From an uncultured virus (IMG/VR IMGVR_UViG_3300029914_000006) (taxonomy: Duplodnaviria; Heunggongvirae; Uroviricota; Caudoviricetes), in the IMG/VR virus record IMGVR_UViG_3300029914_000006: a stretch of 63,718 nt of DNA, one strand, 5' to 3'. Below are positions 27,748 to 63,585 of the stretch, one piece after another (position 1 is the first letter of the stretch; every line of letters starts with the position of its first letter). The notes beneath the pieces are model-generated. The model searched no databases and was not told where the DNA came from. It was given only the letters and a program-made list of their open reading frames with translations. The translations under genes were made by a program, and so were the position numbers.

Positions 27748-27947
27748 ATTTGAAAAGCAGCAGCAACATCAAGGGTGCAACATTCAACCCGGACGACCAG
27801 ACCATCACAATTTCCTTTCACAGTGGGCACCAAGGCCAATATTTGGGCTGCACGGAAGAGGACGCGCGGGACTTCGAGAACGCAGACAGCCCCGGCAAGC
27901 ACCTGCACGCGGTCATCAAGCCGCAGAGGCCGTACAAGCCGCTGTAA
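27732..27947 (+). CDS. KTSC domain protein
   Basis: SSNIKGATFNP..ITISFHSG..Y..FENADSPGKHLHAVIK. Confidence 0.8.
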   Translation: MEQALNLKSSSNIKGATFNPDDQTITISFHSGHQGQYLGCTEEDARDFENADSPGKHLHAVIKPQRPYKPL

Positions 27948-27973
27948 CGTCGTTGAATAGGCACTAGGGTGCC
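27943..27973 (+). repeat. Cassette L site, copy A
   Basis: TGTAACGT-CGTTGAATAGGCACT-AGGGTGCC; matches copies at 32283, 50838 (reverse), 63043. Confidence 0.8.
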
Positions 27974-27989
27974 TGATGGGAGGGATGAA

Positions 27990-28370
27990 ATGAGCAATTG
28001 TGGAGTTTGCCTGAGTTCAGGACATGACTTTGGCGACAACGATTTTGCGATGTATACAGCGACGTTCAAAACGCCGATGCAATGTTGTGAATGTGGTCGC
28101 ACCATTCCTGCGGGAGAACCGCATGAAAAAGCCCGTTTTCGAGAGGAAGCAGGAAGCTCAAAGTGGGCAACCAACCACACTTGCGCGGTCTGCGCTGAGA
28201 TTGCCTGGGCGTTCTTTTGCGACTCTCGGCGTTATGAATGCCTGTGGGATTACATCAACGATGATCTGTTCCCGAAGTTCTCGCAAAGCTGCTTGAACAA
28301 GTTGAAATCCCCAGAGGCAAAAGCGGAACTACAGCGCCGCTGGTTGTCCTGGAAAGGTCTCGCGGCGTAG
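27990..28370 (+). CDS. Cys-rich zinc-binding hypothetical protein (cassette A cargo)
   Basis: GGGAGGG RBS; CCECGRTIPAGEPHE..HTCAVC. Confidence 0.65.
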   Translation: MSNCGVCLSSGHDFGDNDFAMYTATFKTPMQCCECGRTIPAGEPHEKARFREEAGSSKWATNHTCAVCAEIAWAFFCDSRRYECLWDYINDDLFPKFSQSCLNKLKSPEAKAELQRRWLSWKGLAA

Positions 28371-28398
28371 GCACCGTAACGATACGGGCTACGACTCC
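28370..28398 (+). repeat. Cassette R site, copy A
   Basis: GGCACCGT-AACGATACGGGCT-ACGACTCC, overlapping last base of TAG stop. Confidence 0.7.
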
Positions 28399-28424
28399 AA
28401 CGCAAGAAAGAGAGGAACTAAGGA

Positions 28425-28550
28425 ATGGACTGGAAAGAGAAAACTGTTATTCGAATCCTGCTAGTGATAGCCCAATGGATCGCGCCGAATGAGTGGAAGA
28501 AGGACGTTGAAACGCTGGCCACACATATCAGCGTCAACACTCCGAAATAG
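28425..28550 (+). CDS. Small hypothetical protein (41 aa)
   Basis: AAGGA RBS; MDWKEKTVIRILLVIAQWIAP...TPK*. Confidence 0.4.
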   Translation: MDWKEKTVIRILLVIAQWIAPNEWKKDVETLATHISVNTPK

Positions 28551-28589
28551 AAGTCCAGGCGTGATCTACGATCTAAGGGAAGGTAAGCA

Positions 28590-31226
28590 TTGTCTGACAT
28601 CTCCGAATACCGCATCCCCGACCAGGCACCGGAGTACCCGGAAGAGAAGGAGCGTCCACGGCCCCAAACGGTGGAAGCAGTGGCTCCGTGCTCGATCGAT
28701 GGAGAACGAGTCCTACTCGGGGCTGTGCTCCTAGACCCGGCCTGCTTCAACGAGATTGCCGAGGCGCTGACGCCGGAGGACTTCTTCCTCGACAGCCATC
28801 GGCGCATCTTTCAGCGCATGGCCGACCTGATCGACGCGCAGCAAGCCGTAGACCTTGTGACCCTATGCGCGGAACTCGACCGCCACAAGGAGCGCGAGTC
28901 AGTCGGTGGCGCGGCGTTCATTTCCGGCCTTACGGATGGACTACCGCGGCGGCCCCAGATTGCCGACTACATTCGCATCGTCAAGGAGAAGTCCCAACTC
29001 CGCCGGCTGATGGCAATCTGCTCCTCTGTGCTGTCGCGCGCGGCCGACCAGAGCGAGACGGCGATGGCGGTTCTGGAAGACGCGGAATCGCAGTTGCTGG
29101 AGGTGGCCCAGGAGTCGAATACCAGCAAGTTGCGAGACTTCGGATCTTCTGTAACTCAAGCGGGAGGGCCAGATCAATATATTCGCCAGTACACCGAACC
29201 GAACCTCAAGGTGGGACTTCCGACGGGTTTTATTGATTACGATCGGCTTACTGGAGGTCTTCAGAAGGGAGAGTTGACGATCATTGCAGCCAGGCCAGCG
29301 CAAGGAAAAACTAGCATTTCAATGAATATTCTCGAAAACGTATGCTGCGGAACAGATATGGTAGCAGCGTTCTTTTCTTTGGAGATGTCGAGGCCCTCGG
29401 TGGAGCGTCGGTTCATGGCATCTAGGGCTCGCGTGGACATCAAGAGGGCCATGGAGGGAGAATTCCTTAGCTCGGAGGAAAAAAGAAAGCTACAGAAGGC
29501 ACTAAATGACTTGGTGGAGTCTCGCATATTTATCGACGACTGCTCCAATATGACCCCGATTCAGATGAGAGCAAAGGGTCGCCGGCTAAAGCAGCGCGAG
29601 GGGCGCCTTGATCTTGTGGTGATCGATTACATCAGTCTCGTATCGGGAGACAAAAAAACCCAAAACAGGGAACAAGAAGTGGCGCTTGTGTCTCGATCCC
29701 TGAAGGCAATGTCAAAAGAACTCGATTGCCCCGTGATCGCTCTTGCCCAACTCAATAGGAATAACGAACAGCGCCAAGATAAGCGTCCCGTATTGTCAGA
29801 TCTGCGGGAATGCTTGTCAGAAAAAGACACTTTTCTGTTTACTTCTGGTGGTGTTCAATCTAATATGGAATCTCCTATGAACACGTATAGTTTAAGCAAT
29901 GAAAAAATCAAACCTGTCCCTTCCTTCAACGTTCCGAAGGGGGTATCGCAAGCGATTAGAGTCAGGACGAGATCGGGGCGCGAAATTGTATGCACTCCAA
30001 ATCACTCCATACTCACGGATGTTGGCTGGGTCAAGGCCAAAGACCTAACTCCAGATCACGCTATTGCTGCGGCGAGAAAGATCGACAGCCTGCCTGGGCG
30101 TATTTCTATACCGGAATCTCGGTGGATTGGGAGAATGCTCGGAAATGGATCAATGCTAGGGTATTCATCCCCATCCTTCATTTGTTCTTGCGCGGATGTT
30201 GCCAAGGATTTCTGTGAGGACACTGAAAGGCTATTCGGTCTTATCCCTAGATATCACAAGCACTCAAGCGATAAGGTTTTCCAGTACGACATAACAACGC
30301 GATCGAAGAGGACAAGGGAAGGAAACCCCGTAAAAAATTGGCTAATGTGCCACGACTTGTGGGGTAAAAAAGCCCACGAGAAAAGCATCCCGGAGTGGTT
30401 TATGGAGCAGGCCGATGACGAGTCTATCGCCAACATGATAGCTGGCCTAGTAGAGACAGATGGATCGGTATTTACCACCTCTGTTCCGATGGTAAAGTAC
30501 AGCACCACAAGCAAAAAAATGGCATGGCAATTTATGTGGTGCTTGAGCCGCCTTGGAGTATTTGCAAAGATTGATGAGGGGGATCTTAGTCCCAAGGCTA
30601 ATTTTGTTTGCTATAGTGTATTGATCCAAGAGGGGAAAGAGGTAGATTTATTTCGGTCAAAGATTAATTTGGTAGGGAGAAAAGGAAGAACTCTTCTTGG
30701 CTTGAACCCTAGTTTGCACGGCAGCAATCATGGAGACCGTTTGGGAGTGTGGGTAAGTTCAAAGCTGAGGGAAATTTCTCTTGCGAATGGGATGTCATAT
30801 GGCGACTTGGGATACAGGAGCCAGGGAAAGCGCATAAGCCAAGTAGATTTGTCCAAGGCCCTCTCTGTATTCTCTAGGCGTGGCATCAAGGTCCCAGAGT
30901 TGTCTGTCCTAATTAACTCGTACATTTTTTGGGATCGGCTCAAGAGGATAGACGCGGCAGGAGACGTTAAGGTATTTGATCGTATCGTGCCAGGTCCTAA
31001 TAATTTCATAGCGAACGGCATAGTGGTTCACAACAGCGGGCAAATTGAACAAGACGCAGATGTTCTCAACTTTGTCCATAGGCCAGAATACTATGACCGA
31101 GATAATGACGAGTTGAAGGGGATTGCAGAGCTTATTTGCGCGAAGCACCGTAATGGTGCTACTCGCACCATTCACCTTGCATTTGAAGGTTCCCTCACTC
31201 GTTTCGACAATATCGCAAGGAGATAG
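28590..31226 (+). CDS. dnaB: Replicative DNA helicase DnaB containing an intein
   Basis: ERVLLGAVLL N-domain, IIAARPAQGKT, FFSLEM, VVIDYISL, LAQLNR, RPVLSDLRE|intein|SGQIEQDAD, AKHRNG. Confidence 0.95.
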   Translation: MSDISEYRIPDQAPEYPEEKERPRPQTVEAVAPCSIDGERVLLGAVLLDPACFNEIAEALTPEDFFLDSHRRIFQRMADLIDAQQAVDLVTLCAELDRHKERESVGGAAFISGLTDGLPRRPQIADYIRIVKEKSQLRRLMAICSSVLSRAADQSETAMAVLEDAESQLLEVAQESNTSKLRDFGSSVTQAGGPDQYIRQYTEPNLKVGLPTGFIDYDRLTGGLQKGELTIIAARPAQGKTSISMNILENVCCGTDMVAAFFSLEMSRPSVERRFMASRARVDIKRAMEGEFLSSEEKRKLQKALNDLVESRIFIDDCSNMTPIQMRAKGRRLKQREGRLDLVVIDYISLVSGDKKTQNREQEVALVSRSLKAMSKELDCPVIALAQLNRNNEQRQDKRPVLSDLRECLSEKDTFLFTSGGVQSNMESPMNTYSLSNEKIKPVPSFNVPKGVSQAIRVRTRSGREIVCTPNHSILTDVGWVKAKDLTPDHAIAAARKIDSLPGRISIPESRWIGRMLGNGSMLGYSSPSFICSCADVAKDFCEDTERLFGLIPRYHKHSSDKVFQYDITTRSKRTREGNPVKNWLMCHDLWGKKAHEKSIPEWFMEQADDESIANMIAGLVETDGSVFTTSVPMVKYSTTSKKMAWQFMWCLSRLGVFAKIDEGDLSPKANFVCYSVLIQEGKEVDLFRSKINLVGRKGRTLLGLNPSLHGSNHGDRLGVWVSSKLREISLANGMSYGDLGYRSQGKRISQVDLSKALSVFSRRGIKVPELSVLINSYIFWDRLKRIDAAGDVKVFDRIVPGPNNFIANGIVVHNSGQIEQDADVLNFVHRPEYYDRDNDELKGIAELICAKHRNGATRTIHLAFEGSLTRFDNIARR
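29811..31034 (+). mobile_element. Intein with LAGLIDADG homing endonuclease (408 aa)
   Basis: Starts Cys (CLSEK), block B CTPNHSILT, WIGRMLGNGS and MIAGLVETDGS motifs, ends NFIANGIVVHN followed by Ser; lower GC than exteins. Confidence 0.92.
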
Positions 31227-31229
31227 ACC

Positions 31230-31460
31230 ATGAACGCAGCACCGAAGATCAAGCAGATTCTTGCCGATGTGTCTGGATATGACTTGATCGACATAACCGA
31301 CGAGAGTACACTGACGTTGGATCTTGACTTGGACTCTTTAGACATTGTGCATCTAGCGCAAGAACTAGAGTCCGAGTTCGGAGTAGGCATACCAGATACA
31401 GACATAACGGCGACAATGACTGTCCGTGATCTGGTAGAGACGATCAACAAGATGATTTAG
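31230..31460 (+). CDS. acpP: Acyl carrier protein
   Basis: 76 aa, acidic; DLDLDSLDIVHLAQELESEFGVGIPD..TVRDLV with the phosphopantetheine Ser in DSL. Confidence 0.85.
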   Translation: MNAAPKIKQILADVSGYDLIDITDESTLTLDLDLDSLDIVHLAQELESEFGVGIPDTDITATMTVRDLVETINKMI

Positions 31461-31489
31461 AAATCAGCACAACCACGAAAGAAGGAACC

Positions 31490-31750
31490 ATGGACTTTGT
31501 GATCGAAAAAGGGGTTTATATCCCCGAGAAGATTTCTCCATTCAGCCAGCGCGTACCCGTCGAGTCGAAGTATCCTATTTTTGCGCAGATGGAAGTCGGC
31601 GACAGCTTTGCGGCCCCCAACGTTGACAAGAAGATGCTCGGCAACCTGGGCGGCGCACGCGCGGCATACCAGAAGAAGCACCCCGGCGTGAAGTTCACCT
31701 CGCGCACCATCAAGGAAGAGGGCGTCATCCGCATCTGGCGCATCAGCTAG
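31490..31750 (+). CDS. Small phage DNA-binding-like protein
   Basis: IEKGVYIP..SKYPIFAQMEVGDSF..FTSRT..GVIRIWRI family pattern. Confidence 0.7.
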   Translation: MDFVIEKGVYIPEKISPFSQRVPVESKYPIFAQMEVGDSFAAPNVDKKMLGNLGGARAAYQKKHPGVKFTSRTIKEEGVIRIWRIS

Positions 31751-31804
31751 TCGCCGGCAGGGGCAGTCGTTGGCGAATCACGGCTGCCCTGAAGGACACG
31801 ACCC

Positions 31805-32242
31805 ATGCCAAAGTCAGGACCGCGGGAATTGGAAGCATACCATCAACGAGTTTTAGACGAGGAGCGGCAGAAATCTAGTCGCCCGATGAAAGGAAATATG
31901 GCAAGCACAGATTTCAACACAGAGAAGCTGGACGCGGAATCAGTTGATGCCGCGTCCAAGAGAGTGGCGGCAATGTTCGCTGTCGAGCACCCCGCAGTTA
32001 CAAACCTCCCCTTGGATCAGGCGCTTGGCGTGAGCCCTGCTCCTGCATCCGAGCCCACCGAGAAGAAGCAGAGGACCACTGTGGCGAAATTGGCGCAGCG
32101 GTACCAAGAGCGCGAGGCTGAACTCGCCAAGAATATCGACGAGATCAAGCGCATCATCGGCACGTACCAGCGGACCTTGGCGGAGGCGGAATTTAAGCTC
32201 TCCGTCTGGCGTGAGGCTCTGGCCGAGATTGGCGCCGACTGA
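31805..32242 (+). CDS. Hypothetical coiled-coil protein (alternative start 31898)
   Basis: ORF with C-terminal heptads. Confidence 0.55.
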   Translation: MPKSGPRELEAYHQRVLDEERQKSSRPMKGNMASTDFNTEKLDAESVDAASKRVAAMFAVEHPAVTNLPLDQALGVSPAPASEPTEKKQRTTVAKLAQRYQEREAELAKNIDEIKRIIGTYQRTLAEAEFKLSVWREALAEIGAD

Positions 32243-32282
32243 CTCAATATGTGGGCGGCTTCTCATTTGATCTGCCGCCCAC

Positions 32283-32313
32283 GCAGTCGTCGCTGAATAG
32301 GCGCCACGGTGCC
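32283..32313 (+). repeat. Cassette L site, copy B
   Basis: GCAGTCGT-CGCTGAATAGGCGCC-ACGGTGCC; preceded by hairpin GTGGGCGGC/GCCGCCCAC (32251-32282). Confidence 0.75.
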
Positions 32314-32332
32314 AAGAGAAAGAAGGATCTTG

Positions 32333-32740
32333 ATGAAAGCTTTGAGCGTAAGAGCGCCGTGGTGGTGGGCGATCATCCATGGAAAGCCCGTCGAGAACCG
32401 GGATTGGTCTACGAAGTTCCGGGGGCGATTTCTACTCCACGCAAGCAAATGGTGGAATCGGACGGAGATCGACTTTGACTACGAGAGCATCAGGGCGATG
32501 GTTAGGAAAGACGGGTTGGACTGGCCTGATCCGAGCTTTTCTCTTCTTCGCGAGACGGGCGGATTGATTGTCGGCTCTGTTGAGATCGTGGACTGTGTGA
32601 CCGAACATCCGAGTGCATTCTTTGTCGGTAAGTTCGGATTTGTGCTCCGTGATCCTATCTTGTTCGATCTGGAACACAGGATTCCGTTCAAGGGCGCTCC
32701 TGGCTTCTTCGATGTGCCGGATGAGCTTTTAGGTAGGTAA
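32333..32740 (+). CDS. ASCH domain protein (cassette B cargo)
   Basis: MKALSVRAPWWWAIIHGKPVENRDW..RGRFLLHAS..GLIVGSVEIVDCV..PFKGAPGFF. Confidence 0.88.
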   Translation: MKALSVRAPWWWAIIHGKPVENRDWSTKFRGRFLLHASKWWNRTEIDFDYESIRAMVRKDGLDWPDPSFSLLRETGGLIVGSVEIVDCVTEHPSAFFVGKFGFVLRDPILFDLEHRIPFKGAPGFFDVPDELLGR

Positions 32741-32764
32741 CGTAGCGATATACGCTACGTCACC
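32736..32764 (+). repeat. Cassette R site, copy B
   Basis: GGTAACGT-AGCGATATACGCT-ACGTCACC, palindromic, contains the TAA stop. Confidence 0.8.
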
Positions 32765-32770
32765 TGCTTT

Positions 32771-32805
32771 AACGCTTGCAAAATGTCTCATCCTCCGTGT
32801 ATTGT
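32771..32805 (+). promoter_or_regulatory. Integrase promoter with operator-like box
   Basis: AACGCTTGCA (32771-32780) overlapping TTGCAA-18-TATTGT. Confidence 0.55.
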
Positions 32806-32829
32806 GATTCGTGAAAGGAAAGGTAAGCG

Positions 32830-33984
32830 ATGCCCAAAAACAGCTATCAGCACGGCTCAGTAACCCTCATATCCCTCAAGTCGGGTCCGGTATGGAGGTT
32901 GCGCTACCGGCGCGACGGGAAGCAGTTCTCCGACTTCATCGGGACGCAGCGCCAGTACCCCGACAAAGCCGACGCGATACGGGCCGCCGAGCGCATGATG
33001 TCGATCATCAACGGGCCGACCTCCGAGTGCGTGACGATGGCCGACCTGGTGGACCGCTTCCTGCGCGAAGCGATGCCTGATCGGAAGTCCACCGCCAACT
33101 CCTACAAGTCCATCCTGTCGCGCATCCGAGAAGCCTGGGGTAGTACGCGCATCGACAAGTTCACGCTGGATATGGTTCAGGTCCAGAACTGGCTGGAGGG
33201 CCTGACCACGGTCAGACAGCGCCCGAAGCGTGCGCCCGCGAAGCCTCTGTCTGGACTCTACAAGGCCCAGGTGAAGGCCCTGCTCCACCTCCTGATAGAG
33301 AAGGCAATGCTCTGGAAGGTGATCCAGATGCAGCGCAACCCGGTGGAGGTGGTGAAGCTCAAGGGATCGAGCGCACGCGCCAAGGAGATTGTCATCCTGA
33401 CCATCCCGCGGTACCAAGCATTGCTCGACGATCCAGAACTTCCGGAACTGGTCAAGGTCATCATTCAGGTGACCGCTGCGCTCGGACTGCGCATCTCGGA
33501 GACGCTGGGGCTCCAGTGGAAGGATCTCGACTTCGAGGCCAACACTATCTCCATCGAGCGCGGCGTGATCGGCGGGGAGACAAACAACGTGAAGACGGAG
33601 GGCTCCCGGCAGGTGTTACCTCTGCATCAGAATCTGGTGGACCTCCTGCGCGAGTGGCGCGCTTACCGGCCGGTTATCGGCGACTGGATCTTCGGCTCGG
33701 AGCGGACGGGGAGGCCCTACGACAGAGATCCGTTGAGGGAAGAGTACCTGAAGCCAGCCGGGGCGAGGATTGGCGCTTCGGGGCTTGGATGGCATTCCTT
33801 GAGGCATCTGAACCGCGCTATTCAGAAGCAAATAGGCCTACCGATGGAGACTCAGCGCAATTTAATGCGCCACTCCCGCATCGCGACGACCATCGACACT
33901 TACGGCGGCAACGACAACCTGGAACAGACGAGGCCCGCAAACGAGCAGATCGTGCGCGTGCTTCCGTGGAGAAAGGTATCTTGA
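32830..33984 (+). CDS. int: Tyrosine recombinase / phage integrase
   Basis: N-terminal arm-binding-like WRLRYR; catalytic LGLRISE (R), VKTEGS (K), HSLRH, MRHS, DTYG (Y). Confidence 0.92.
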   Translation: MPKNSYQHGSVTLISLKSGPVWRLRYRRDGKQFSDFIGTQRQYPDKADAIRAAERMMSIINGPTSECVTMADLVDRFLREAMPDRKSTANSYKSILSRIREAWGSTRIDKFTLDMVQVQNWLEGLTTVRQRPKRAPAKPLSGLYKAQVKALLHLLIEKAMLWKVIQMQRNPVEVVKLKGSSARAKEIVILTIPRYQALLDDPELPELVKVIIQVTAALGLRISETLGLQWKDLDFEANTISIERGVIGGETNNVKTEGSRQVLPLHQNLVDLLREWRAYRPVIGDWIFGSERTGRPYDRDPLREEYLKPAGARIGASGLGWHSLRHLNRAIQKQIGLPMETQRNLMRHSRIATTIDTYGGNDNLEQTRPANEQIVRVLPWRKVS

Positions 33985-34292
33985 GCGAACCGAAACCAGC
34001 GATGCACAACTTCCCGCAGGCAATCAACATGCTGCGCTTGACGAAAATGACGGATGGGGCGTTCAACTTCGATCCCCTCTCCGTGGAGATAGTTTACCCG
34101 GTCGTCACGACTCGTGTCTGGTACACCAGTCAGCACCGCATCCACGGATACTTCTACCTTGAAAAGAATGGCGTGGGATACTTCGTTGGATACAAGTGCA
34201 ATGAGTGTCAGGAAGTCTTCCTCGTGCCGGATACTGTCGAGGAAAACGGAGAATTTCACAGCGCAATGATGCACAAGTACATGGAGGCATAA
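33981..34292 (+). CDS. Hypothetical protein
   Basis: TTG start overlapping integrase stop; YKCNEC motif. Confidence 0.55.
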   Translation: MSEPKPAMHNFPQAINMLRLTKMTDGAFNFDPLSVEIVYPVVTTRVWYTSQHRIHGYFYLEKNGVGYFVGYKCNECQEVFLVPDTVEENGEFHSAMMHKYMEA

Positions 34293-34573
34293 TGAGCGAA
34301 AAACAAGATGTCTGTGTTCATCCGAAGGTTTATCGGAAATACGAAGTCGATGGCGTAAGCTGGAGCGGCGAGTGGGCGTGTGGAACTTGCAACGCGAAGT
34401 TCTACCACATGGAAGACATGGTATTCCCTGCCGGCGGTAAGTTAACCGTCATGGATCCGCAAGCGACCCTCCGCGACCAGTTCGCGATGGCGGCGCTATC
34501 AGGAATGATGTATGCGGAATCTAGCATGACCGCAAATAATGTCGCCAAGCTCGGCATTCCGGAGGCGGAATGA
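34292..34573 (+). CDS. Hypothetical protein
   Basis: GGAGG RBS; TLRDQFAMAALSG motif common in phage early proteins. Confidence 0.6.
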   Translation: MSEKQDVCVHPKVYRKYEVDGVSWSGEWACGTCNAKFYHMEDMVFPAGGKLTVMDPQATLRDQFAMAALSGMMYAESSMTANNVAKLGIPEAE

Positions 34574-34866
34574 AATCCATCGAAGTGAAGAAAAGCGCCA
34601 CCGTAGACTGGATGTATCCGAACATCTACAAAGAGGAGCCGCTGGATTGCCTGACCATCGCCCTCATGCACGTCCGCGCGGCCAACGACATCGAGATTGA
34701 GTTCAGCGGAGAGCGCAACGGCTGGGTGATCTACATGACGGTAACCGTTGGCTACAGGCCCAGCGGCAAAGGGCACGATGAACCCATCGAGGAGCGCCGC
34801 GAGAAGGCGTTCATCCCCGCCTGGGACGAAGACGAGTGGGACGAAAATCAGGAGGAGGCGGAATGA
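34570..34866 (+). CDS. Hypothetical protein
   Basis: GGAGG RBS, ATGA coupling. Confidence 0.6.
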   Translation: MKSIEVKKSATVDWMYPNIYKEEPLDCLTIALMHVRAANDIEIEFSGERNGWVIYMTVTVGYRPSGKGHDEPIEERREKAFIPAWDEDEWDENQEEAE

Positions 34867-35072
34867 GCATAGTCCACATTCTGATCAAGCGGTACTATGA
34901 CGGCAACGGATTTTTCATCCTCGGCGCGACCGAGAAAGACGAGGTGGCGCAGGCGTTCTGCATGGGCGGCGGCGATTCCGATTGCGCTACTGAGTCCTAC
35001 GAAGTGGAAACGGAAGCGCCGGTTCTATCGAAGCAGTGCTCCGTTAAGCCAACAGACTGGGAGGCGGAATGA
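34863..35072 (+). CDS. Hypothetical protein
   Basis: GGAGG RBS, ATGA coupling. Confidence 0.55.
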   Translation: MSIVHILIKRYYDGNGFFILGATEKDEVAQAFCMGGGDSDCATESYEVETEAPVLSKQCSVKPTDWEAE

Positions 35073-35680
35073 TCGTCGAGTGCGGAGTGTGCCACGTAGC
35101 CTATGAGGAGTCCATCCGAAGCACGCACTGCCCACACGAGCAGAGCGCCGGAACAACAGTGCGGTCACCTTCCGCTAAGTGCATTTGCGGCCACGGATAC
35201 GACCGTCACATGCACAATAGCGACATATGCGCTGAAGATTGCGGATGCCGTGGCTACCAGATGGCCAGCAAGGAGGAGGCGGAGTACGTCAGCCCCTACT
35301 TCCACGGTAAGCCGCCGGTGGTGAATATCCCCGCCTCCGCCTTCAACATGATGGATTGGATCAACGATTCAATCGACCGCATGACTGGAGCGCAGCCAAT
35401 TTGGGCGATGAACGCTCCGCAATCCAACCCCTTTGACGCAACCTGCGACGGTAGCTACCCAAATAACGGCGGCGATATCACGCTGAAGAGCTTGCAGGCG
35501 GCCTACGCATCGGCAAAGTTCGGCGGCCAAGAGGTCCGCGTCAACCCCTACATTCCGAAGAACGAACTCTGGATGGTCAGCAGCAAGGGCGACATCCTCA
35601 AGATAGTCAACATCGGCAATCATCCGACTCCGATCAGCGACGAGGATGAGCCGAGTCTGTGCAGAGGAGAATCCAAATGA
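35069..35680 (+). CDS. Cys/His-rich hypothetical protein
   Basis: GGAGG RBS; CGVC, CICGH, CGC motifs. Confidence 0.55.
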   Translation: MIVECGVCHVAYEESIRSTHCPHEQSAGTTVRSPSAKCICGHGYDRHMHNSDICAEDCGCRGYQMASKEEAEYVSPYFHGKPPVVNIPASAFNMMDWINDSIDRMTGAQPIWAMNAPQSNPFDATCDGSYPNNGGDITLKSLQAAYASAKFGGQEVRVNPYIPKNELWMVSSKGDILKIVNIGNHPTPISDEDEPSLCRGESK

Positions 35681-35835
35681 ACTGGATGACGGCGAAGTTC
35701 AACGGCGAATGTGTCAGTTGCACATGCAATATTTATGAGGGCGAACGCATCCTGTTCGACTTCGAGGAACGCGAAACCTATTGCAGCAAGTGCGGAGAGC
35801 GGATCAAGCCAGACCCGAAGAAGGAGGCAAAGTAG
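35677..35835 (+). CDS. Small zinc-ribbon protein (52 aa)
   Basis: MNWMTAKFNGECVSC..IYEGE..YCSKCG; coupled on both sides. Confidence 0.55.
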   Translation: MNWMTAKFNGECVSCTCNIYEGERILFDFEERETYCSKCGERIKPDPKKEAK

Positions 35836-36042
35836 ATGGCAGACATTAAGCAGGCCGCAAAGTGGATCGAGCAGGGAAGAACCGTAACTCGCCACGACGG
35901 GTATCTTTATCAGGGTAATGAAATAGAAGAAGGCTTGAACATGTTTCAAATCGTTTGTCTCGATGAAGATACCCGTGAGAACTTGATAGGCACAATGTTT
36001 ACTGACGATATTCTAGCCGAAGACTGGGAGATTGCCGAATGA
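35836..36042 (+). CDS. Small phage protein (DUF2829-like ending)
   Basis: AAGGAGG RBS; ends DDILAEDWEI. Confidence 0.6.
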   Translation: MADIKQAAKWIEQGRTVTRHDGYLYQGNEIEEGLNMFQIVCLDEDTRENLIGTMFTDDILAEDWEIAE

Positions 36043-36416
36043 TAAGCCGCATCGAAGTGCAATTTGCTGTCCCGGTTGAACTAACAGACCGCGAGATGCA
36101 GGACATTCACCGCATCGTCAACAACGCCGCGCGGCGCTCTCAGACGCCTGAGCTTATTCATTGGGCGGCGGGGACTGGCTCAAAGCCGATCTGGAGGAAG
36201 CCGCAGGAACCTGAATGGGACGATTCGGTTTTCTTCATCGAGTGCTGCGCCCGCGAGAGATACGAGACGGAGAAGTTCGTCCCGTTCACCGACCTCCGCA
36301 CCAAGCTCCTACAGGAAGCCGATTTCCTTGGCAGGAAAGATGGCGGCAATATCTCCGAGTTCGAGATGAAGCAGGCTATCGCCAGAATTTGCGATAGCAG
36401 TCAGGATGCCAAATGA
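36039..36416 (+). CDS. Hypothetical protein
   Basis: Coupled ORF. Confidence 0.55.
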   Translation: MISRIEVQFAVPVELTDREMQDIHRIVNNAARRSQTPELIHWAAGTGSKPIWRKPQEPEWDDSVFFIECCARERYETEKFVPFTDLRTKLLQEADFLGRKDGGNISEFEMKQAIARICDSSQDAK

Positions 36417-36625
36417 TCCACTCCCTAAATTTCAATGTAGGCCAGCGCGACGGAAAATGGTTTGCCCTTTGGGATGATGCGGAGACCAACAACCACATGG
36501 AAGGCCCTGCAAGGGACACCGAAGCGGAGGCCATTGCCGACAGGGATCATGCTGCACAGTTGGCGGTGATGGTGCTTCGGCAGCGTATGCCGGGAGCAGT
36601 AATTACGAAGGAGAGTATCCAATGA
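36413..36625 (+). CDS. Hypothetical protein
   Basis: Coupled ORF. Confidence 0.55.
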   Translation: MIHSLNFNVGQRDGKWFALWDDAETNNHMEGPARDTEAEAIADRDHAAQLAVMVLRQRMPGAVITKESIQ

Positions 36626-37296
36626 CCGACCTCTTCGACGCGCCCGCCGAGTTCCCCGAATCCGTTCTGCTGTCCATCTACAACGCCTACCCGCGCAAGA
36701 CCGGCCGCCCAGCCGCTCTAAAGAGCATCAACAAGGCACTGTGGCGCATCTGCGGCGGCGAGATCGACGGCCAGCCGCGCACCCAGGCAGAAGCCATCGA
36801 CTTTCTGCGGATCAAGACCGAAGAGGCCCGGCGCCAGATGTACGGCCGACTCAGCGCACGCATCCCGCACATGACTACATGGCTGAACCAATCGAGGTAC
36901 CTGCGCCCCGAACTCAAGGACTGCGAACTGCCGGCGCAGATGAGCGCCTGCATCGAGATCCTGGCCGAGTACCCCAACCAGCCGCCGGCAGACGCGATCG
37001 GATCCGACCCGGCATCCTTCGCGCTGCACCTCTGCGCGATCGACAAGGCGCTGGAGTATATGGAGCGGTCCCAACCCGGCCTGCGGCGCGAGAACCACGA
37101 GCGGCGACTCAAGGCGCGCACGCAGTTGTACGCTATGGCCGTCAGTGACTGGCCGGTATCCGATATGCAGTACGTTCCGAGTCCGAGGAGATTCTTCGAT
37201 GAGCACAGGTTTGAGCAAGACCCCGCAATCTGGCGGCGCAAACTCGTCAACGGATATGACCAAGAGCGCGCCCAGGCCCAGCGACTCGTCCAATAA
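36622..37296 (+). CDS. Replication initiator C-terminal-like protein (two tandem domains)
   Basis: YNAYPRKTGRPAALK..IPHMTTWLNQSRY and second copy LAEYP..YVPSPRRFFDEHRF. Confidence 0.6.
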   Translation: MTDLFDAPAEFPESVLLSIYNAYPRKTGRPAALKSINKALWRICGGEIDGQPRTQAEAIDFLRIKTEEARRQMYGRLSARIPHMTTWLNQSRYLRPELKDCELPAQMSACIEILAEYPNQPPADAIGSDPASFALHLCAIDKALEYMERSQPGLRRENHERRLKARTQLYAMAVSDWPVSDMQYVPSPRRFFDEHRFEQDPAIWRRKLVNGYDQERAQAQRLVQ

Positions 37297-37834
37297 GCGA
37301 ACGGCGGCAGTCGGCATGGTCATGGTGAAAGAGATGTTTCCGGTCAACCAGCAGGAGTCCGATGCCGCGGCGAAGTTGCGAGTCGAGTTGCTAGCCGAGG
37401 TCGTGGATGCTGTCGGCCCGGAAGCCTTCTTGGCGGCAGTGAAGAAGGCAATCAGTATCAGCAAGGGACGTTACGATTGTACCGTCAGCAGGATCAGAGA
37501 TTGCGCCGGCCTTCAGCACGTCCCTGATCCGTCTCCGGCGATGAAGGCGTGGGCAACCGTGACCGAGATCGTCCAGCGGCACGTCAGGGAAGCGCCAGAG
37601 GGCGGCATTCGGCTTGAGCCCTATGTGTACCGGCGCGGAGATGAAGTGCTAGAGGTGCCTGTCCCGGCCATTCCTGAGCCTATGGCGCGCGCGTTGCGCA
37701 GCCTGGGAGGGTGGAAGGCCCTGATGGATACTGAACCGGCCTACTGGAGCCAGCGGATGCGGGACTTCTGCGGGGCGTATCAGGAAGAATCCAGTCTCAA
37801 ACGAGACTGCGACGAGAGGAGATTGACGGCATGA
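37199..37834 (+). CDS. Putative helicase loader-like protein (start uncertain)
   Basis: AMKAWATV..ARALRSLGGWKAL..RDFCGAY pattern typical of genes following phage initiators. Confidence 0.5.
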   Translation: MSTGLSKTPQSGGANSSTDMTKSAPRPSDSSNKRTAAVGMVMVKEMFPVNQQESDAAAKLRVELLAEVVDAVGPEAFLAAVKKAISISKGRYDCTVSRIRDCAGLQHVPDPSPAMKAWATVTEIVQRHVREAPEGGIRLEPYVYRRGDEVLEVPVPAIPEPMARALRSLGGWKALMDTEPAYWSQRMRDFCGAYQEESSLKRDCDERRLTA

Positions 37835-38799: not shown

Positions 38800-39035
38800 G
38801 CAACATCTACGGAGTGAATAAATGGATCAGCGTCAAAGACAAGATGCCAGATACACGCGGGGAAGTGGGCCATTCCATTTCGGTGCTCATCTGGAACCCC
38901 TTCAACCAATGCGTTTTCATGGCCATATGGCGCGATGGAGAAGGATGGGAAGATTGGACTAACGGGCAGCATAAGCACTGCGAAGACGAGATCACCTATT
39001 GGATGCATCTACCCGAGCCACCGGAGGCATCATGA
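38796..39035 (+). CDS. DUF551-like protein
   Basis: WISVKDKMP..ITYWMHLPEPP. Confidence 0.8.
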   Translation: MSNIYGVNKWISVKDKMPDTRGEVGHSISVLIWNPFNQCVFMAIWRDGEGWEDWTNGQHKHCEDEITYWMHLPEPPEAS

Positions 39036-39698: not shown

Positions 39699-39817
39699 CA
39701 CCGTTTGCAGCGCATGTAATCACGGCAAGCATGGGCGATGCAGTGGGCGGCGGCAGTTGGCGACCGGTGGATACGGGCCTTGCGAGTGCGAATGCGCCAA
39801 AACAGAAAGGAAAGAGG

Positions 39818-40768: not shown

Positions 40769-40806
40769 TACTCCACCGCCTGTGCGAGTACGGTAAACTT
40801 GGATTG

Positions 40807-44507: not shown

Positions 44508-44567
44508 AGCTAGATAACCGCTACGGTGCCTGACGTTTTGTAGTAATTTTCTTTTAAGGGGATTCGG

Positions 44568-46430: not shown

Positions 46431-46446
46431 ACTCCGGAGGCCGACA

Positions 46447-50358: not shown

Positions 50359-50388
50359 GGTACCGTAGCGGTGAATCGCGACGTTACC
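50359..50388 (-). repeat. Cassette R site, copy C
   Basis: Minus strand GGTAACGT-CGCGATTCACCGCT-ACGGTACC, contains the TAA stop. Confidence 0.8.
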
Positions 50389-50788
50389 TACCTAAAAGCT
50401 CATCAGGAACATTGAAGAAACCGAGAGCACCCTTGAATGGGATAGGATTCTCGAATATCACTGGATCGCGCAAGACAAAGCCCCACTCGCCGACAAAGAA
50501 CGAGCTCGGATGGCTGCGCACACAGTCCACAATTGTGACCTTGCCAACGATGCATCCAGACTTCTCTTGCATCTCTTCTTTCGGCCAATCGCTAGGGAAA
50601 TCAAGCCCATCGTCTTCGGCCCTGTCCAGGACATCGTTCCAGTCGCCAAGAACATCTACATCCTTCCAGAACTTGCTTGCATGGAGGAGTACAGGTCCAC
50701 GGAAGTTGGTGTACCAATCTCGGTTTTCAATAGGTTTCCCGTGGAGTATTGCCCACCACCACGGCGCTCTTACGCTCAAAGCTTTCAT
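50384..50788 (-). CDS. ASCH domain protein, paralog of 32333-32740 (cassette C cargo)
   Basis: MKALSVRAPWWWAILHGKPIENRDW..PFKGALGFFNVPDELLGR. Confidence 0.88.
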   Translation of the reverse strand: MKALSVRAPWWWAILHGKPIENRDWYTNFRGPVLLHASKFWKDVDVLGDWNDVLDRAEDDGLDFPSDWPKEEMQEKSGCIVGKVTIVDCVRSHPSSFFVGEWGFVLRDPVIFENPIPFKGALGFFNVPDELLGR

Positions 50789-50807: not shown

Positions 50808-50838
50808 GGCACCGTAGTGCCTATTCAACGACGGTGCC
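50808..50838 (-). repeat. Cassette L site, copy C
   Basis: Minus strand GGCACCGT-CGTTGAATAGGCACT-ACGGTGCC with perfect 8-bp inverted arms. Confidence 0.85.
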
Positions 50839-57573: not shown

Positions 57574-58050
57574 TTATTCCTCTCCAGGGACATTGCCCGT
57601 GTCTGGGTCGCGCAGCATCATCCGCTCACGATGCCAAGCCGGGCAGCAATCACACGGCCCAGGATTCTCCCGGATGTATGCCTGAACCCGCTCGATGCAC
57701 GCCTTGCATGTGCAGATAGCAGGCTCCAGCACAAGGTTTCCTACCTGCATGATGATCGGGCCAACATGGAAAGCCTTGTGAATCTCCTCCAGGGTCAGGT
57801 CAAACCACTCTCCATGAACGCGCCGAGACTTGAATAATTCATGCAGCCGCTCTTCAAAGAACCATCCAAGCCCCCGCTTACACATCATAAGCGCAATAAA
57901 ATCTAGCGGGTAAGGGCTTTGTCTTGCCAGCGTACTGACTCTCGCGCTAGGGTTATCAGTTGTGCCGATCTTGGCGCGGCCGCACTCGGACCATATGACA
58001 TAGACATAGCTGCGGTTACGCGCGTGGAAGTCAGTCGTTAAACGGCTCAT
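57574..58050 (-). CDS. GIY-YIG nuclease (T5orf172/MUG113-like)
   Basis: YVYVI..AKIGTTDNPSARV..EERLHELF..RVHGEWF. Confidence 0.85.
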   Translation of the reverse strand: MSRLTTDFHARNRSYVYVIWSECGRAKIGTTDNPSARVSTLARQSPYPLDFIALMMCKRGLGWFFEERLHELFKSRRVHGEWFDLTLEEIHKAFHVGPIIMQVGNLVLEPAICTCKACIERVQAYIRENPGPCDCCPAWHRERMMLRDPDTGNVPGEE

Positions 58051-62730: not shown

Positions 62731-62956
62731 GGGACCAACACCGTACACGGCAGAGGAACTGGTGGCGATGCTGAAGGATCGGCAGGGGAATCTTACCCAG
62801 CAGGCGTTTGCGAAGGAACTTCAAATCAGTTTTCAGCTTCTGTCCCAAATCTATAAGGGCGACAGGAGCATTGGGAACGAGAAGATCCTCAGCTACCTGG
62901 CGCCGAAAGGTTCCAAGTTCTCGCACCAGGACGTTTGGAACTTGATTAAGGGGTAG
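62723..62956 (+). CDS. XRE/Cro-like helix-turn-helix protein
   Basis: LTQQAFAKELQISFQLLSQIYKGDR; GGAGG RBS. Confidence 0.75.
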   Translation: MAKGPTPYTAEELVAMLKDRQGNLTQQAFAKELQISFQLLSQIYKGDRSIGNEKILSYLAPKGSKFSHQDVWNLIKG

Positions 62957-62974
62957 ACTGTCTGCTTCCTAAGT

Positions 62975-63035
62975 TTGGGTGGTCGGCTGGCCGGGAAACC
63001 GGAGGAAGCCCCGCTATTAAACGGGGACCACCCAA
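62975..63035 (+). ncRNA. Candidate three-way-junction RNA element
   Basis: TTGGGTGGTC/GACCACCCAA 10-bp stem enclosing CCGG-GAAA-CCGG and CCCG/CGGG hairpins. Confidence 0.4.
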
Positions 63036-63042
63036 TTCAATT

Positions 63043-63073
63043 AACAACCACGTTGAATAGACACTACAGTGCC
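63043..63073 (+). repeat. Cassette L site, copy D
   Basis: AACAACCA-CGTTGAATAGACACT-ACAGTGCC. Confidence 0.75.
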
Positions 63074-63087
63074 CGAAGGGAAGCACC

Positions 63088-63561
63088 ATGAAAGTTGTCT
63101 TTCTTGATTTCGATGGCCCGATTATCCCGATGGCCTCGCACCAACCGCCTTACAGGATTCCGGGTAGCGGAGCACAGGCGTTGCCTTGTTGTGTGGACCA
63201 ACTCAACAAGATCACAGACGCAACGGGAGCCGTCATAGTCGTGAGCAGCACATGGCGTGCAGATGGCCTGATGAAGACCCGAGAACGCTTGCATAAATGG
63301 GGAATAAAGGCCGATTGCATAGCGATTACTCCACATATGGACGAGCGCGACCCAAAGAGCGGCCTATGGATTTCGCACCCTCGTGGGCAGGAAATCCAGA
63401 AATGGCTCGATGAATACGACCGCGAGGAAGTTGAGGCATTCGTGATTCTCGATGACGATTCAGACATGGAGCATCTGATGCCATATCTCGTGCAGACTCC
63501 GTTTGAAACGGGGATTACCGAGGACCACACTGCTCAGGCGGTTGCACTTCTGAACAGGTAA
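63088..63561 (+). CDS. HAD-superfamily protein (Swiss Army knife RNA-repair-like HAD domain; cassette D cargo)
   Basis: VVFLDFDGPI, IVVSSTWR, RGQEIQKWL, FVILDDDSDM, GIT. Confidence 0.85.
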   Translation: MKVVFLDFDGPIIPMASHQPPYRIPGSGAQALPCCVDQLNKITDATGAVIVVSSTWRADGLMKTRERLHKWGIKADCIAITPHMDERDPKSGLWISHPRGQEIQKWLDEYDREEVEAFVILDDDSDMEHLMPYLVQTPFETGITEDHTAQAVALLNR

Positions 63562-63585
63562 CGTCGCGACACGTGCTACGTTACC
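63557..63585 (+). repeat. Cassette R site, copy D
   Basis: GGTAACGT-CGCGACACGTGCT-ACGTTACC with perfect arms (extends to CAGGTAACGT/ACGTTACCTG), contains the TAA stop. Confidence 0.85.

What the first reader, a model, noticed from the sequence alone, without database searches (positions are those of the whole stretch)
27943..63585. Dispersed single-gene cassettes bracketed by a conserved pair of palindromic L and R sites: candidate gene-cassette mobility system
Seen: four separate loci share the architecture L site - RBS - one ~400-480 bp gene - R site. Spans: A 27943-28398 (Zn-binding protein), B 32283-32764 (ASCH), C 50838-50359 on the minus strand (ASCH), D 63043-63585 (HAD). L sites (31 bp): TGTAACGT-CGTTGAATAGGCACT-AGGGTGCC; GCAGTCGT-CGCTGAATAGGCGCC-ACGGTGCC; GGCACCGT-CGTTGAATAGGCACT-ACGGTGCC; AACAACCA-CGTTGAATAGACACT-ACAGTGCC. 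R sites (29-30 bp): GGCACCGT-AACGATACGGGCT-ACGACTCC; GGTAACGT-AGCGATATACGCT-ACGTCACC; GGTAACGT-CGCGATTCACCGCT-ACGGTACC; GGTAACGT-CGCGACACGTGCT-ACGTTACC. L and R share the 8-bp inverted arm GGYAMCGT/ACGKTRCC but have site-specific spacers. R always overlaps the cargo stop codon, L ends 14-19 bp before the ATG, and three unrelated cargo families are carried. Each cassette is co-oriented with its host operon and has no room for its own promoter. Established: tyrosine-recombinase sites (loxP, dif/pdif) are ~28-34 bp inverted arms around an asymmetric spacer; integron cassettes are promoterless single genes whose stop often lies in the att site; three L sites contain GTTGAAT, which fits the integron core GTTRRRY. 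Inference: these are mobile one-gene modules moved by a site-specific recombinase, analogous to but distinct in sequence from pdif modules and attC cassettes, and dispersed rather than arrayed. I do not recognise this site family.
Basis: partly seen in the sequence, partly recalled or inferred. Interest (0 to 1): 0.9.

Follow-up and report, generated by a model that had tools for sequence, protein, structure and literature searches.

The report
Swappable gene cassettes in peat phages
Four small accessory genes in this peat phage sit between conserved ~30-base boundary sequences that also mark where genes have been swapped between unrelated phages, most likely by ordinary recombination at shared expression signals and not by a dedicated cassette recombinase.

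Summary
All four L and four R sites are at the stated coordinates. A fifth, unpaired site lies at 44511-44530.

The window is a phage from peat metagenomes. A prophage in the acidobacterium Telmatobacter bradus carries the same sites.

The same L core, TGAATAGGCACTNCGGTGCC, occurs 1-6 times per genome in otherwise unrelated phages. Relatives show:
- Cassette replacement between identical L and R sites.
- A 96-99% identical ASCH cargo in a different phage with unrelated flanks.
- A no-L / L-only / L-plus-insert series at one gene junction.
- Arrays with one junction site per gene.

So cassette-like modularity is real. The integron/pdif-type reading is not supported:
- L's left arm is not conserved.
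- Exchange end points vary.
- One complete phage with two cassettes has no detected integrase but does have ERF and YqaJ.
- The window's integrase is generic.

L is a sense-strand hairpin, mostly with a UNCG loop, at a fixed distance from the ribosome-binding site.

Best reading: these are expression-adaptor boundary elements that double as short homology for recombinational gene shuffling. The closest known analogue is the PeSL cassettes of T4-type phages. This is a new variant of a known kind.

The parts
27943..27973 (+). L site of cassette A. The stop TAA of the upstream KTSC gene lies in GTAAC, followed by TGAATAG and the hairpin GGCAC-TAGG-GTGCC.
   Evidence: E 6.6e-9
27990..28370 (+). 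Cargo A: a 126-aa Cys-rich ORFan. A zinc-binding role is inferred only from its CxxC motifs.
   Evidence: no family match and no relatives
28368..28398 (+). R site of cassette A (TAGGCACCGTAACGATACGGGCTACGACTCC). It is degenerate and a weak palindrome.
32283..32313 (+). L site of cassette B (hairpin GGCGC-CACG-GTGCC, with a G.U pair).
   Evidence: E 2.8e-8
32333..32740 (+). Cargo B: an ASCH-like protein of 135 aa.
   Evidence: phrog_3193; ASC-1 ASCH domain, E 9e-5
32735..32765 (+). R site of cassette B: a 12/13-bp palindrome around ATATA that contains the stop TAA.
   Evidence: z -4.69
50808..50838 (-). L site of cassette C. This is the only L in the window with a complete 8-bp outer inverted repeat (GGCACCGT...ACGGTGCC).
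   Evidence: E 8e-10
50384..50788 (-). Cargo C: an ASCH-like protein of 134 aa. It is 98% identical in protein and 96% identical over 448 nt to a copy in the unrelated phage record G007.
50359..50389 (-). R site of cassette C (AGGTAACGTCGCGATTCACCGCTACGGTACC).
63043..63073 (+). L site of cassette D (hairpin GACAC-TACA-GTGCC, weakened).
   Evidence: E 6.6e-8
63088..63561 (+). Cargo D: a HAD_SAK_2 phosphatase-like protein of 157 aa.
   Evidence: E 3.3e-25
63554..63588 (+). R site of cassette D: a 13/14-bp palindrome that contains the stop TAA.
   Evidence: z -4.21
44511..44530 (+). A fifth, unpaired junction site (TAGATAACCGCTACGGTGCC). It lies 4 nt after the stop of the 917-aa tailspike-like gene and in front of the gene at 44568. 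It marks the left edge of a mosaic patch shared with G007.
   Evidence: E 1.2e-4
32830..33984 (+). A tyrosine integrase next to cassette B. It is a generic phage integrase, not an integron integrase, and no link to the sites was found.
21303..22259 (+). A RecT/Bet-type single-strand annealing protein, with exonuclease-like genes at 24384-25286 and 26101-27480. This is the phage's own homologous-recombination module and the candidate engine of cassette shuffling.

Best explanation
L and R are two variants of one family of ~30-nt junction elements found in phages of peat Acidobacteria.

**Anatomy (shown)**
- An element begins at the stop codon of the upstream gene, as TAG-GCACCGT or AGG-TAA-CGT.
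- The L variant continues with (C)TGAATAG and a 5-bp sense-strand hairpin, GGCRC-UNCG-GUGCC. It ends about 10-21 nt before the next start codon, just ahead of that gene's Shine-Dalgarno sequence.
- The R variant keeps the 5' part (GGYAMCGTCGCGA) but replaces TGAATAG with CGAYACG. Its hairpin half is degenerate.

**What the elements do for expression (inferred)**
- They act on the mRNA as expression adaptors. They end upstream translation and give the cargo a stable 5' stem-loop with its own RBS. In the window, a 3' stem-loop follows the cargo.
- This would let an imported gene work in any operon without its own promoter.

**How they drive mobility**
- The same 20-25 nt are shared by otherwise unrelated phages. 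They therefore serve as short patches of homology.
- The phages' own recombination systems (RecT/ERF annealing proteins with exonucleases) could replace, insert or delete the gene between them.
- Exchange at the sites is shown. The recombination route is inferred.
- No dedicated site-specific recombinase is needed.
For: **Gene exchange at the sites**
1. G001 and G005 are about 97% identical up to 2 nt past L. They are about 93% identical again from the start of R. The cargo between is unrelated, 100 aa versus 129 aa.
2. Window cassette C and record G007 are near-identical from about the start codon to ...GATGAGCTTTTAG. BLAST gives 96.2% over 448 nt from the L hairpin. The 14-nt hairpin is identical, the 5' UTR is about 70% identical, and the flanks are unrelated. 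In G007 the R-like sequence is read through as coding.
3. The YqaJ-to-gene-X junction exists in three states. G001 has no L. L047, L051, L080, L132, L137, L142 and L143 have L only. L065, L129, L131 and L141 have L plus a 532-bp, two-ORF insert with no R.
4. Arrays exist with one junction per gene: four genes in G003 at 14205-15720 and two genes in G007. One junction is an R-5'/L hybrid.
5. The site at 44511 is the left edge of a mosaic patch shared with G007.

**End points vary**
- Left edges fall at the hairpin, 2 nt after it, or 65 nt into the coding region (B versus C, and the chimeric N-terminus in L065).
- Right edges fall before R, inside R, or have no R at all.

**Action on the sense strand and at the RNA level**
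- 95.8% of hairpin cells are paired.
- One pair alternates A-U and G-U 10:9, which would be C.A on the other strand.
- The 3' arm GTGCC is invariant in 19 of 19 sites.
- Loops are UACG, UGCG or UUCG in 13 of 19 sites.
- 18 of 21 distinct L sites are followed by an ORF with a Shine-Dalgarno sequence within 10-68 nt, mostly 10-21 nt. For 13 of those 18, the stop codon lies in an R- or L-type junction.

**No recombinase is consistently linked**
- G001 is 100% complete and has two cassettes. It encodes ERF, YqaJ and RusA, but none of the 36 ORFs scanned is an integrase.
- G002 is also complete. It encodes YqaJ, and none of its 40 scanned ORFs is an integrase.
- The window encodes RecT.

**The sites belong to phages, not the host**
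- The 5.1-Mb T. bradus genome has L only at its two prophage sites.
- There are 1-6 sites per phage genome.
Against: - No transcript data exist. The processing, stabilising or translational role of L and R is inferred from anatomy only.
- The hairpin shows no double compensatory changes. Sequence-specific recognition by a protein is therefore equally possible.
- Homology of 14-25 nt is short for efficient annealing-protein recombination. That statement rests on recalled knowledge of Red/RecET, not on a call.
- L and R differ consistently in their central 7-8 nt while sharing arms. Heterospecific recombinase sites would look the same.
- In the window R is a good palindrome in B and D, which an mRNA 3' stem-loop does not strictly need.
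- No circular or empty-site reads were seen, so ongoing mobility was not observed.
- The set of independent examples is small: about 20 L sites from one habitat type.
Confidence: 0.55

Rival explanations
1. A true site-specific cassette system. L and R would be heterospecific recombination sites with shared arms and different central regions. A tyrosine recombinase (the phage integrase, host XerC/D or an unidentified enzyme) would recognise them, so that L x L and R x R exchanges swap cassettes between co-infecting phages. This would be a natural form of recombinase-mediated cassette exchange.
For: - R, and L of cassette C, have 8-12-bp inverted arms around a 5-15-nt centre.
- The arm variants GGTAACGT/ACGTTACC and GGCACCGT/ACGGTGCC change on both sides together.
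- The replacement in G001 versus G005 lies exactly between L and R.
- Arrays carry one site per gene.
- An integrase lies 65 nt downstream of R_B.
Against: - The left arm of L is not conserved: 58.6% of cells paired, at shuffle level.
- Most L sites are half-sites plus a hairpin at a fixed distance from the RBS.
- Crossover end points vary.
- G001 and G002 carry sites but no integrase was detected.
- The window's integrase is far below the integron and Xer cut-offs.
- Some inserts lack R.
- No joints were found in four runs.
Confidence: 0.15
2. Purely regulatory signals with no causal role in mobility. L and R would be an operator or an RNA-processing/translation signal and a 3' stem-loop used by a few accessory genes. 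Mosaic boundaries would coincide with them only because recombinants that break inside genes are lost.
For: - L has a fixed position relative to the RBS, a sense-strand hairpin and UNCG loops.
- L stands unpaired before ordinary genes.
- Most homologues of the cargo families lack the sites: 33 of 35 ASCH loci and 15 of 16 HAD loci.
Against: - The 20-nt core is identical across phages that share almost no genes. These are a P22-like portal phage, a T7-like portal phage and the window's phage (88-kb contig).
- The core is absent from the rest of the host genome. This is hard to explain without co-transfer.
- Homology between relatives starts and stops at the sites in four independent comparisons.
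Confidence: 0.2
3. Single-strand hairpin transposition of the IS200/IS605 type. L and R would be subterminal hairpins of non-autonomous elements moved in trans by an HUH (Y1) transposase.
For: - The hairpins at both ends are strand-specific, and the G.T-tolerant strand is always the sense strand.
- The cassettes have no terminal inverted repeats and no clear target duplication.
Against: - No Y1 transposase or TnpB was found among the 18 + 75 window ORFs scanned or the 76 G001/G002 ORFs.
- The L and R hairpins are unlike each other.
- Cassette ends coincide with stop codons and RBS spacing, which transposition would not maintain.
- The end points vary.
Confidence: 0.05

Closest known systems
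PeSL (promoter-early stem-loop) mobile regulatory cassettes of T4-type phages (Arbiol et al. 2010, PMC2839356: abstract and section 13 read; Comeau et al. 2014, PMC4122927: abstract read)
   Same: - Short conserved intergenic motifs run from the upstream stop codon to the downstream Shine-Dalgarno sequence and contain a stem-loop.
- They sit mostly in front of small ORFan or accessory genes.
- Insertions, deletions and replacements between related phages end at the motifs.
- Exchange is attributed to homologous recombination between motifs.
   Different: - No sigma-70 promoter is present, so this is not a promoter/terminator composite.
- There are two site variants (L and R), not one.
- The elements overlap the stop codon precisely.
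- They occur at 1-6 copies per genome, against about 50 for PeSLs.
- They are shared across unrelated phage lineages of Acidobacteria, not within one phage family.
- No mini-circles were observed.
Start-associated sequences (SAS/ESAS) of Cluster K mycobacteriophages (Pope et al. 2011, PMC3203893: passages read)
   Same: - Conserved asymmetric repeats lie just upstream of the start codons of a subset of non-structural genes.
- They have a single orientation, sometimes contain the upstream stop codon, and are absent from the host genome.
- Some have an upstream inverted repeat (ESAS).
- A role in translation initiation has been proposed.
   Different: - SAS includes the Shine-Dalgarno sequence itself and lies 3-7 bp from the start. 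L lies upstream of the SD.
- SAS was not linked to cassette exchange in the passages read.
- There is no paired downstream R element.
Integron gene cassettes (attC/IntI)
   Same: - Promoterless single genes.
- The site overlaps or follows the stop codon.
- Arrays have one site per gene (G003, G007).
- Cargo is diverse and mostly accessory.
   Different: - There is no IntI, attI or Pc.
- The sites are about 30 nt, not 57-141 nt.
- They have no attC-type imperfect palindrome with extrahelical bases.
- The sites supply a hairpin at a fixed distance from the next RBS.
- The end points vary.
Morons of lambdoid phages
   Same: Single accessory genes inserted between two genes of a phage operon, flanked by expression signals.
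   Different: Morons carry their own promoter and a factor-independent terminator, and their flanks are not a conserved sequence family. Here no promoter or canonical terminator is detected, and the flanks are conserved across phages.
pdif modules (XerC/D-flanked modules on Acinetobacter plasmids; recalled)
   Same: Small modules bracketed by ~28-30-bp sites with inverted arms, and dispersed, not arrayed.
   Different: - There is no sequence likeness to dif.
- L lacks one arm.
- The sites are tied to stop codons and RBS spacing and to one strand.

Membership tests
Integron cassette / attC | An IntI-type integrase with the integron-specific insertion, next to attI and Pc | tested here: not met
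   The integrase at 32830 scores 20.9 bits against TIGR02249, whose cut-off is 265, and 17.9 bits against PRK15417, whose cut-off is 435. G001 and G002 have sites but no detected integrase.
Integron cassette / attC | An attC site of 57-141 nt with R''-L''/L'-R' boxes folding on the bottom strand | tested here: not met
   The sites are about 30 nt. GTTGAAT fits GTTRRRY in 3 L sites, but no inverse core lies at attC distance (read directly). The pairing-competent strand is the sense strand.
Integron cassette / attC | Arrays of promoterless cassettes, one site per cassette | tested here: inconclusive
   Arrays of 4 genes (G003) and 2 genes (G007) exist in relatives. The window's four cassettes are dispersed.
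dif/pdif (Xer) sites | Two conserved inverted 11-bp arms around a 6-bp spacer, bound by XerC and XerD | tested here: not met
   The outer arms of L pair in 58.6% of cells, at shuffle level. R_B and R_D are palindromic, but R sites in relatives are not. The host's dif sequence was not compared.
PeSL mobile regulatory cassettes | A composite of a sigma-70-like early promoter and a stem-loop terminator | tested here: not met
   No promoter-like or terminator-like site falls on any L or R within 27000-34000. A stem-loop is present.
PeSL mobile regulatory cassettes | Indels and replacements between related phages end at the motifs | tested here: met
PeSL mobile regulatory cassettes | Mini-circles formed by exchange between neighbouring motifs | tested here: inconclusive
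   No joints were found in four peat runs laid on 27000-46999. These runs are assembled contigs at depth about 2-8, which drop rare forms.
SAS/ESAS | A conserved asymmetric motif containing the Shine-Dalgarno sequence, 3-8 bp from the start codon | tested here: not met
   L ends 10-21 nt from the start in most cases, and the SD lies in the variable stretch after it.
IS200/IS605-type hairpin elements | A Y1 HUH transposase (TnpA) and similar subterminal hairpins at both ends | tested here: not met
   No such Pfam family was found among the 18 + 75 window ORFs or the 76 G001/G002 ORFs. The L and R hairpins differ from each other.
Moron | Its own promoter and terminator around an inserted gene | tested here: inconclusive
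   Insertion between operon genes is shown. No sigma-70-type promoter or U-tract terminator was found. The promoter types of Acidobacteria are not covered by the scan.

The most novel reading that the evidence does not exclude
The junction elements may form a dedicated plug-and-play cassette system of Acidobacteria phages. The L-type and R-type sites would be heterospecific targets of a recombinase or nuclease not yet identified, encoded by the host or by a small phage ORFan. That enzyme would catalyse directional cassette exchange between unrelated co-infecting phages. The same element would carry an RNA insulator (stop codon, UNCG hairpin, RBS spacing) that makes any imported gene expressible. 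This would be an integron-like solution evolved independently in viruses.
Probability: 0.15. Interest if true: 0.85.

Novelty: new variant of a known kind. Interest (0 to 1): 0.6.

Why it matters
**What it would show if confirmed**
- Phages of a poorly studied soil phylum trade single accessory genes through a shared ~30-nt adaptor.
- Many of these genes look like counter-defence or RNA-repair functions: Lar, a C5 methylase, an RNA ligase, HAD_SAK_2 and ASCH.
- The adaptor is conserved far better than any protein among these phages.
- It would extend the PeSL idea beyond T4-type phages to elements without promoters, and across unrelated virion lineages.

**Practical uses**
- A searchable 20-nt marker for finding freshly exchanged phage genes in peat metagenomes.
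- A natural design for context-independent expression of inserted genes.

Tried and rejected
**Searches that found nothing**
- BLASTN of 27000-34000 against the phage and plasmid collections gave no match.
- No Rfam family reached its gathering score in the window, and no tRNA was found.
- The window's integrase and cargo A have no close relatives in viral contigs apart from the window's own record. No empty-site allele of the window's own cassettes could therefore be found.

**Resources that were not available**
- No whole genome is held for the window.
- The records behind L130, L133, L134 and L140 are not held, so the rest of the window's larger contig could not be scanned.

**Expression and reads**
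- The look-up of sequencing runs listed no RNA holder. All 24 holders are peat DNA runs, so expression could not be examined.
- Read laying of four runs (X14-X17) on 27000-46999 showed no joints, no cover missing over cassettes A or B, and no empty sites.
- The loose ends at 32288 and 32749 are contigs of cassette C laid on its paralogue B.

**Ideas considered and dropped**
- A sigma-54 reading of GGCAC-N5-TGC was rejected on spacing: GG-N9-GC, not N10. This rests on direct reading and a recalled consensus.
- A sigma-70 promoter or intrinsic terminator at L or R was not found.
- An N4-type or T7-type phage RNA-polymerase promoter was dropped. No phage RNA polymerase was detected, and L is shared by unrelated phage types.
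- My idea that the junction carries stop codons in all three frames failed. TGAATAG gives stops in two frames in 17 of 19 sites, and all three frames are stopped in only 3 of 19.

- The loose L pattern in viral contigs gave mostly chance hits, 104 stretches in all.
Full report
**1. What is in the window**

- The L pattern has four exact matches and the R pattern four.
- A covariance model of L finds the four L sites at E 8e-10 to 7e-8. The model was built from 19 distinct sites, four of them from the window.
- Its only other significant hit in 63.7 kb is at 44499-44534, E 1e-4. That is a fifth, unpaired junction-like site 4 nt after the tailspike-like gene.
- L ends 16, 19, 19 and 14 nt before the ATG of cargo A-D. 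Each R contains the cargo stop codon.

The cargo types are unrelated to each other.
- A is a Cys-rich ORFan.
- B and C are two ASCH-like paralogues.
- D is a HAD_SAK_2 protein.

R_B and R_D are strong palindromes, with z -4.7 and -4.2 as RNA. R_A and R_C are weak.

**2. What the genome is**

The window is phage DNA. Its recognisable genes are:
- a RecT/Bet annealing protein;
- exonuclease-like genes;
- a DnaB-like helicase;
- a tyrosine integrase;
- a Lar-like protein;
- an RlaP nucleotidyltransferase;
- a 3239-aa protein with ddrB-ParB and AAA_34 domains;
- a tailspike-like protein.

It has no nucleotide match in the phage or plasmid collections. It is held by 24 peat-metagenome DNA runs.

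It corresponds to a 61.6-kb IMG/VR record. Cassette C's L and adjoining sequence also match an 88-kb metagenome contig.

The L core also occurs twice in a prophage of Telmatobacter bradus DSM 23630 (Acidobacteriota) and nowhere else in that 5.1-Mb genome. The hosts are therefore probably Acidobacteria, and the motif belongs to phages, not to the host.

**3. The sites in other phages**

The L core TGAATAGGCRCTNCGGTGCC and near variants were found in records G001-G005 and G007, in several small contigs and in the T. bradus prophage.
- There are 1-6 model hits per genome.
- These phages share almost no genes with the window or with each other.
- G001 has a P22-like portal and G002 a T7-like portal. 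Both are complete genomes.
- So a 20-nt motif is conserved far better than any protein across unrelated backbones.

Of 21 distinct L-type sites:
- 18 are followed, on the same strand, by an ORF with a Shine-Dalgarno sequence 10-68 nt downstream, mostly 10-21 nt;
- 13 of those 18 ORFs end with their stop codon inside an R-type or L-type junction;
- 5 do not.

Where cargo can be named, it is accessory or counter-defence-like: Lar, a C5 DNA methylase, an RNA ligase and a ParB-like protein. The rest are ORFans.

**4. L and R are variants of one junction element**

In arrays a single site sits between consecutive genes.
- G003 at 14205-15720 has four small genes.
- G007 at about 30320-29700 has two.
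- The junction reads stop-GGCRCYGT-CG-TTGAATAG-GCACTNCGGTGCC. That is the 5' part of R joined to L.
- One G003 junction is an explicit hybrid, GATAACGTCGCGA followed by TTGAATAGGCGCAC.

R-type sites keep TAGGCACCGTCGCGA or AGGTAACGTCGCGA. They replace TTGAATAG with YACG(C/G), and the hairpin half is degenerate.

**5. Evidence for gene exchange at the sites**

(a) *G001 versus G005.* They are about 97% identical up to 2 nt past L. The cargo is unrelated. They are about 93% identical again from the start of R. This is a clean replacement between the same L and R.

(b) *Window cassette C versus G007.*
- The 14-nt hairpin is identical and the 5' UTR is about 70% identical.
- The ORF is near-identical to ...TTTTAG: BLAST gives 96.2% over 448 nt including hairpin and UTR, and the protein is 98% identical.
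- The flanks are unrelated.
- G007 lacks TGAATAG, and its R-like sequence is read through as coding.
- This is a recent transfer between different phages.

(c) *One junction, three states.* The YqaJ-to-gene-X junction has no L in G001, L only in seven contigs, and L plus a 532-bp two-ORF insert without R in four contigs.

(d) *The site at 44511.* It is the left edge of a mosaic patch shared with G007.

(e) *Patchy identity within the window.* B and C are 100% identical for 65 nt from the L 3' arm into the coding region, and for the last 24 nt, while their bodies have diverged. L065 carries the same first ~15 codons fused to a different protein.

(f) *Cargo without sites.* Most homologues of the cargo families sit in ordinary overlapping operons without sites: 33 of 35 ASCH loci and 15 of 16 HAD loci. 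Homologues of relatives' cargo occur site-free in the window at 22660-23028 and 24244-24639.

**6. How it most likely works**

*Shown.* Genes between these elements are replaced, inserted and transferred, and the boundaries of homology coincide with the elements.

*Inferred, part 1: the elements act on the sense strand, probably as RNA.*
- The 5-bp hairpin is paired in 95.8% of cells.
- One pair alternates A-U and G-U 10:9. The 3' arm is invariant.
- 13 of 19 loops are UACG, UGCG or UUCG, closed by C-G. This is the UNCG tetraloop class; the class name is recalled knowledge.
- The hairpin keeps a fixed distance to the RBS.
- TGAATAG supplies stop codons in two frames in 17 of 19 sites.
- I read L as an expression adaptor: a translation stop, a stable 5' stem-loop or processing site, and an RBS context. 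I read R, in the window, as a 3' stem-loop.

*Inferred, part 2: exchange is driven by homology.*
- End points vary: at the hairpin, just after it, 65 nt into the gene, before R, inside R, or with no R.
- The left arm of L is not conserved.
- G001 and G002 carry sites, annealing-protein and/or exonuclease genes, and no detected integrase.
- The window encodes RecT, and its integrase is generic.

*Weaknesses.*
- There are no RNA data.
- There is no compensatory covariation.
- The homology is short.
- The consistent L/R difference in the centre is also what heterospecific recombinase sites would show.

**7. Comparison with known systems**

- *PeSLs.* The closest known kind is the PeSL "mobile regulatory cassettes" of T4-type phages (PMC2839356, abstract and section 13 read; PMC4122927, abstract read). 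They share intergenic motifs running from the stop codon to the SD with a stem-loop, a position in front of ORFans, mosaic end points at the motifs, and homologous recombination as the proposed mechanism.
- *How this case differs from PeSLs.* There is no sigma-70 promoter. There are two site variants. The stop codon is overlapped precisely. Copy number is low. The elements are shared across unrelated phage lineages.
- *SAS/ESAS.* These Cluster K mycobacteriophage repeats (PMC3203893, passages read) share the start-associated, one-orientation, host-absent character. They contain the SD itself, and the passages read did not tie them to cassette exchange.
- *Tested and not met.* Membership of integron attC/IntI, Xer/pdif and IS200/IS605 was tested and not met (see Membership tests).
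- *Literature search.* Two full-text searches found no description of this motif family: with terms on Acidobacteria phage intergenic repeat cassettes and on morons. Supplements were not consulted.

**8. Verdict**

The cassette idea is supported. The site-specific recombinase mechanism is not.

I rate this a new variant of a known kind: recombinational shuffling at conserved regulatory junctions. It is of moderate to high interest because of its reach across unrelated phages, the clean comparative evidence, and a cultured host with a prophage in which it can be tested.

Noticed in passing
window 9264-18983 (+): A 3239-aa ORF with a ddrB-like ParB domain (residues 935-1070) and an AAA_34 P-loop domain (1938-2086). 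It also matches large PHROG families of unknown function. It may be a giant injected or anti-restriction-type protein.
   Followed up: partly
window 28590-31226 (+): A DnaB-like helicase of 878 aa, about twice the 452 aa of G001's DnaB. The helicase match covers residues 25-422, and other PHROG matches fall at 450-666 and 840-874. This could be an intein or a fused extra domain.
   Followed up: no
window 51665-51917 (ORF 51439-51897, minus strand): A tandem array of 9-15-nt units (mostly 12 nt), GCCGTCGCCGGA-like, with 15 overlapping copies inside a 152-aa ORF. It encodes a Gly/Asp/Tyr-rich repeat protein.
   Followed up: no
window 37831-38799, 63088-63561, 32333-32740, 50384-50788, 23930-24247: Several genes point to RNA repair or counter-defence. 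They are the RlaP nucleotidyltransferase, HAD_SAK_2 (cargo D), two ASCH-like genes (cargo B and C) and a Lar-like restriction-alleviation protein. An RNA ligase and a C5 methylase are cassette cargo in relatives.
   Followed up: partly
window 31230-31460 (+): A 76-aa acyl-carrier-protein-like ORF (PP-binding, E 8e-15) in the phage early region.
   Followed up: no
window 40043-40768 (-) and 57574-58050 (-): A DUF559/Vsr-like endonuclease gene lies on the strand opposite to its neighbours. There is also a T5orf172/MUG113 (GIY-YIG-like) gene. Both may be free-standing nuclease genes.
   Followed up: no
window 27502-27947 (+): A cold-shock-domain protein and a KTSC-domain protein lie directly upstream of cassette A. 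A KTSC domain also occurs at the N-terminus of the 459-aa exonuclease-like protein (26101-27480) and in G002. To my eye, gene X behind the L-only site in L047 looks CSD-like, but it had no Pfam hit.
   Followed up: partly
L128 1277-1321; G003 (L114) 249-300 and 556-600; G002 (L118) 11247-11290: Some L-type sites stand in tandem (L128). Others have their 3' half extended into a longer hairpin with downstream sequence (GCGCTGCGGT...ACCGCAGCGC) in front of a convergent gene. That arrangement looks like a bidirectional terminator.
   Followed up: partly
L112 16120-16190 (G003): Short direct repeats (GGACAAAAGG, four copies in a row) lie inside the gene downstream of the cassette array. They look iteron-like. 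This gene has a homologue in the T. bradus prophage locus.
   Followed up: no
window 63617-63718 vs L116 3025-3127 (G001): The first 100 nt of the gene after cassette D are 97% identical to a G001 gene. In G001 that gene follows a virion adaptor-like gene, with no cassette or site in between. This is another sharp mosaic boundary, cut off by the end of the window.
   Followed up: partly
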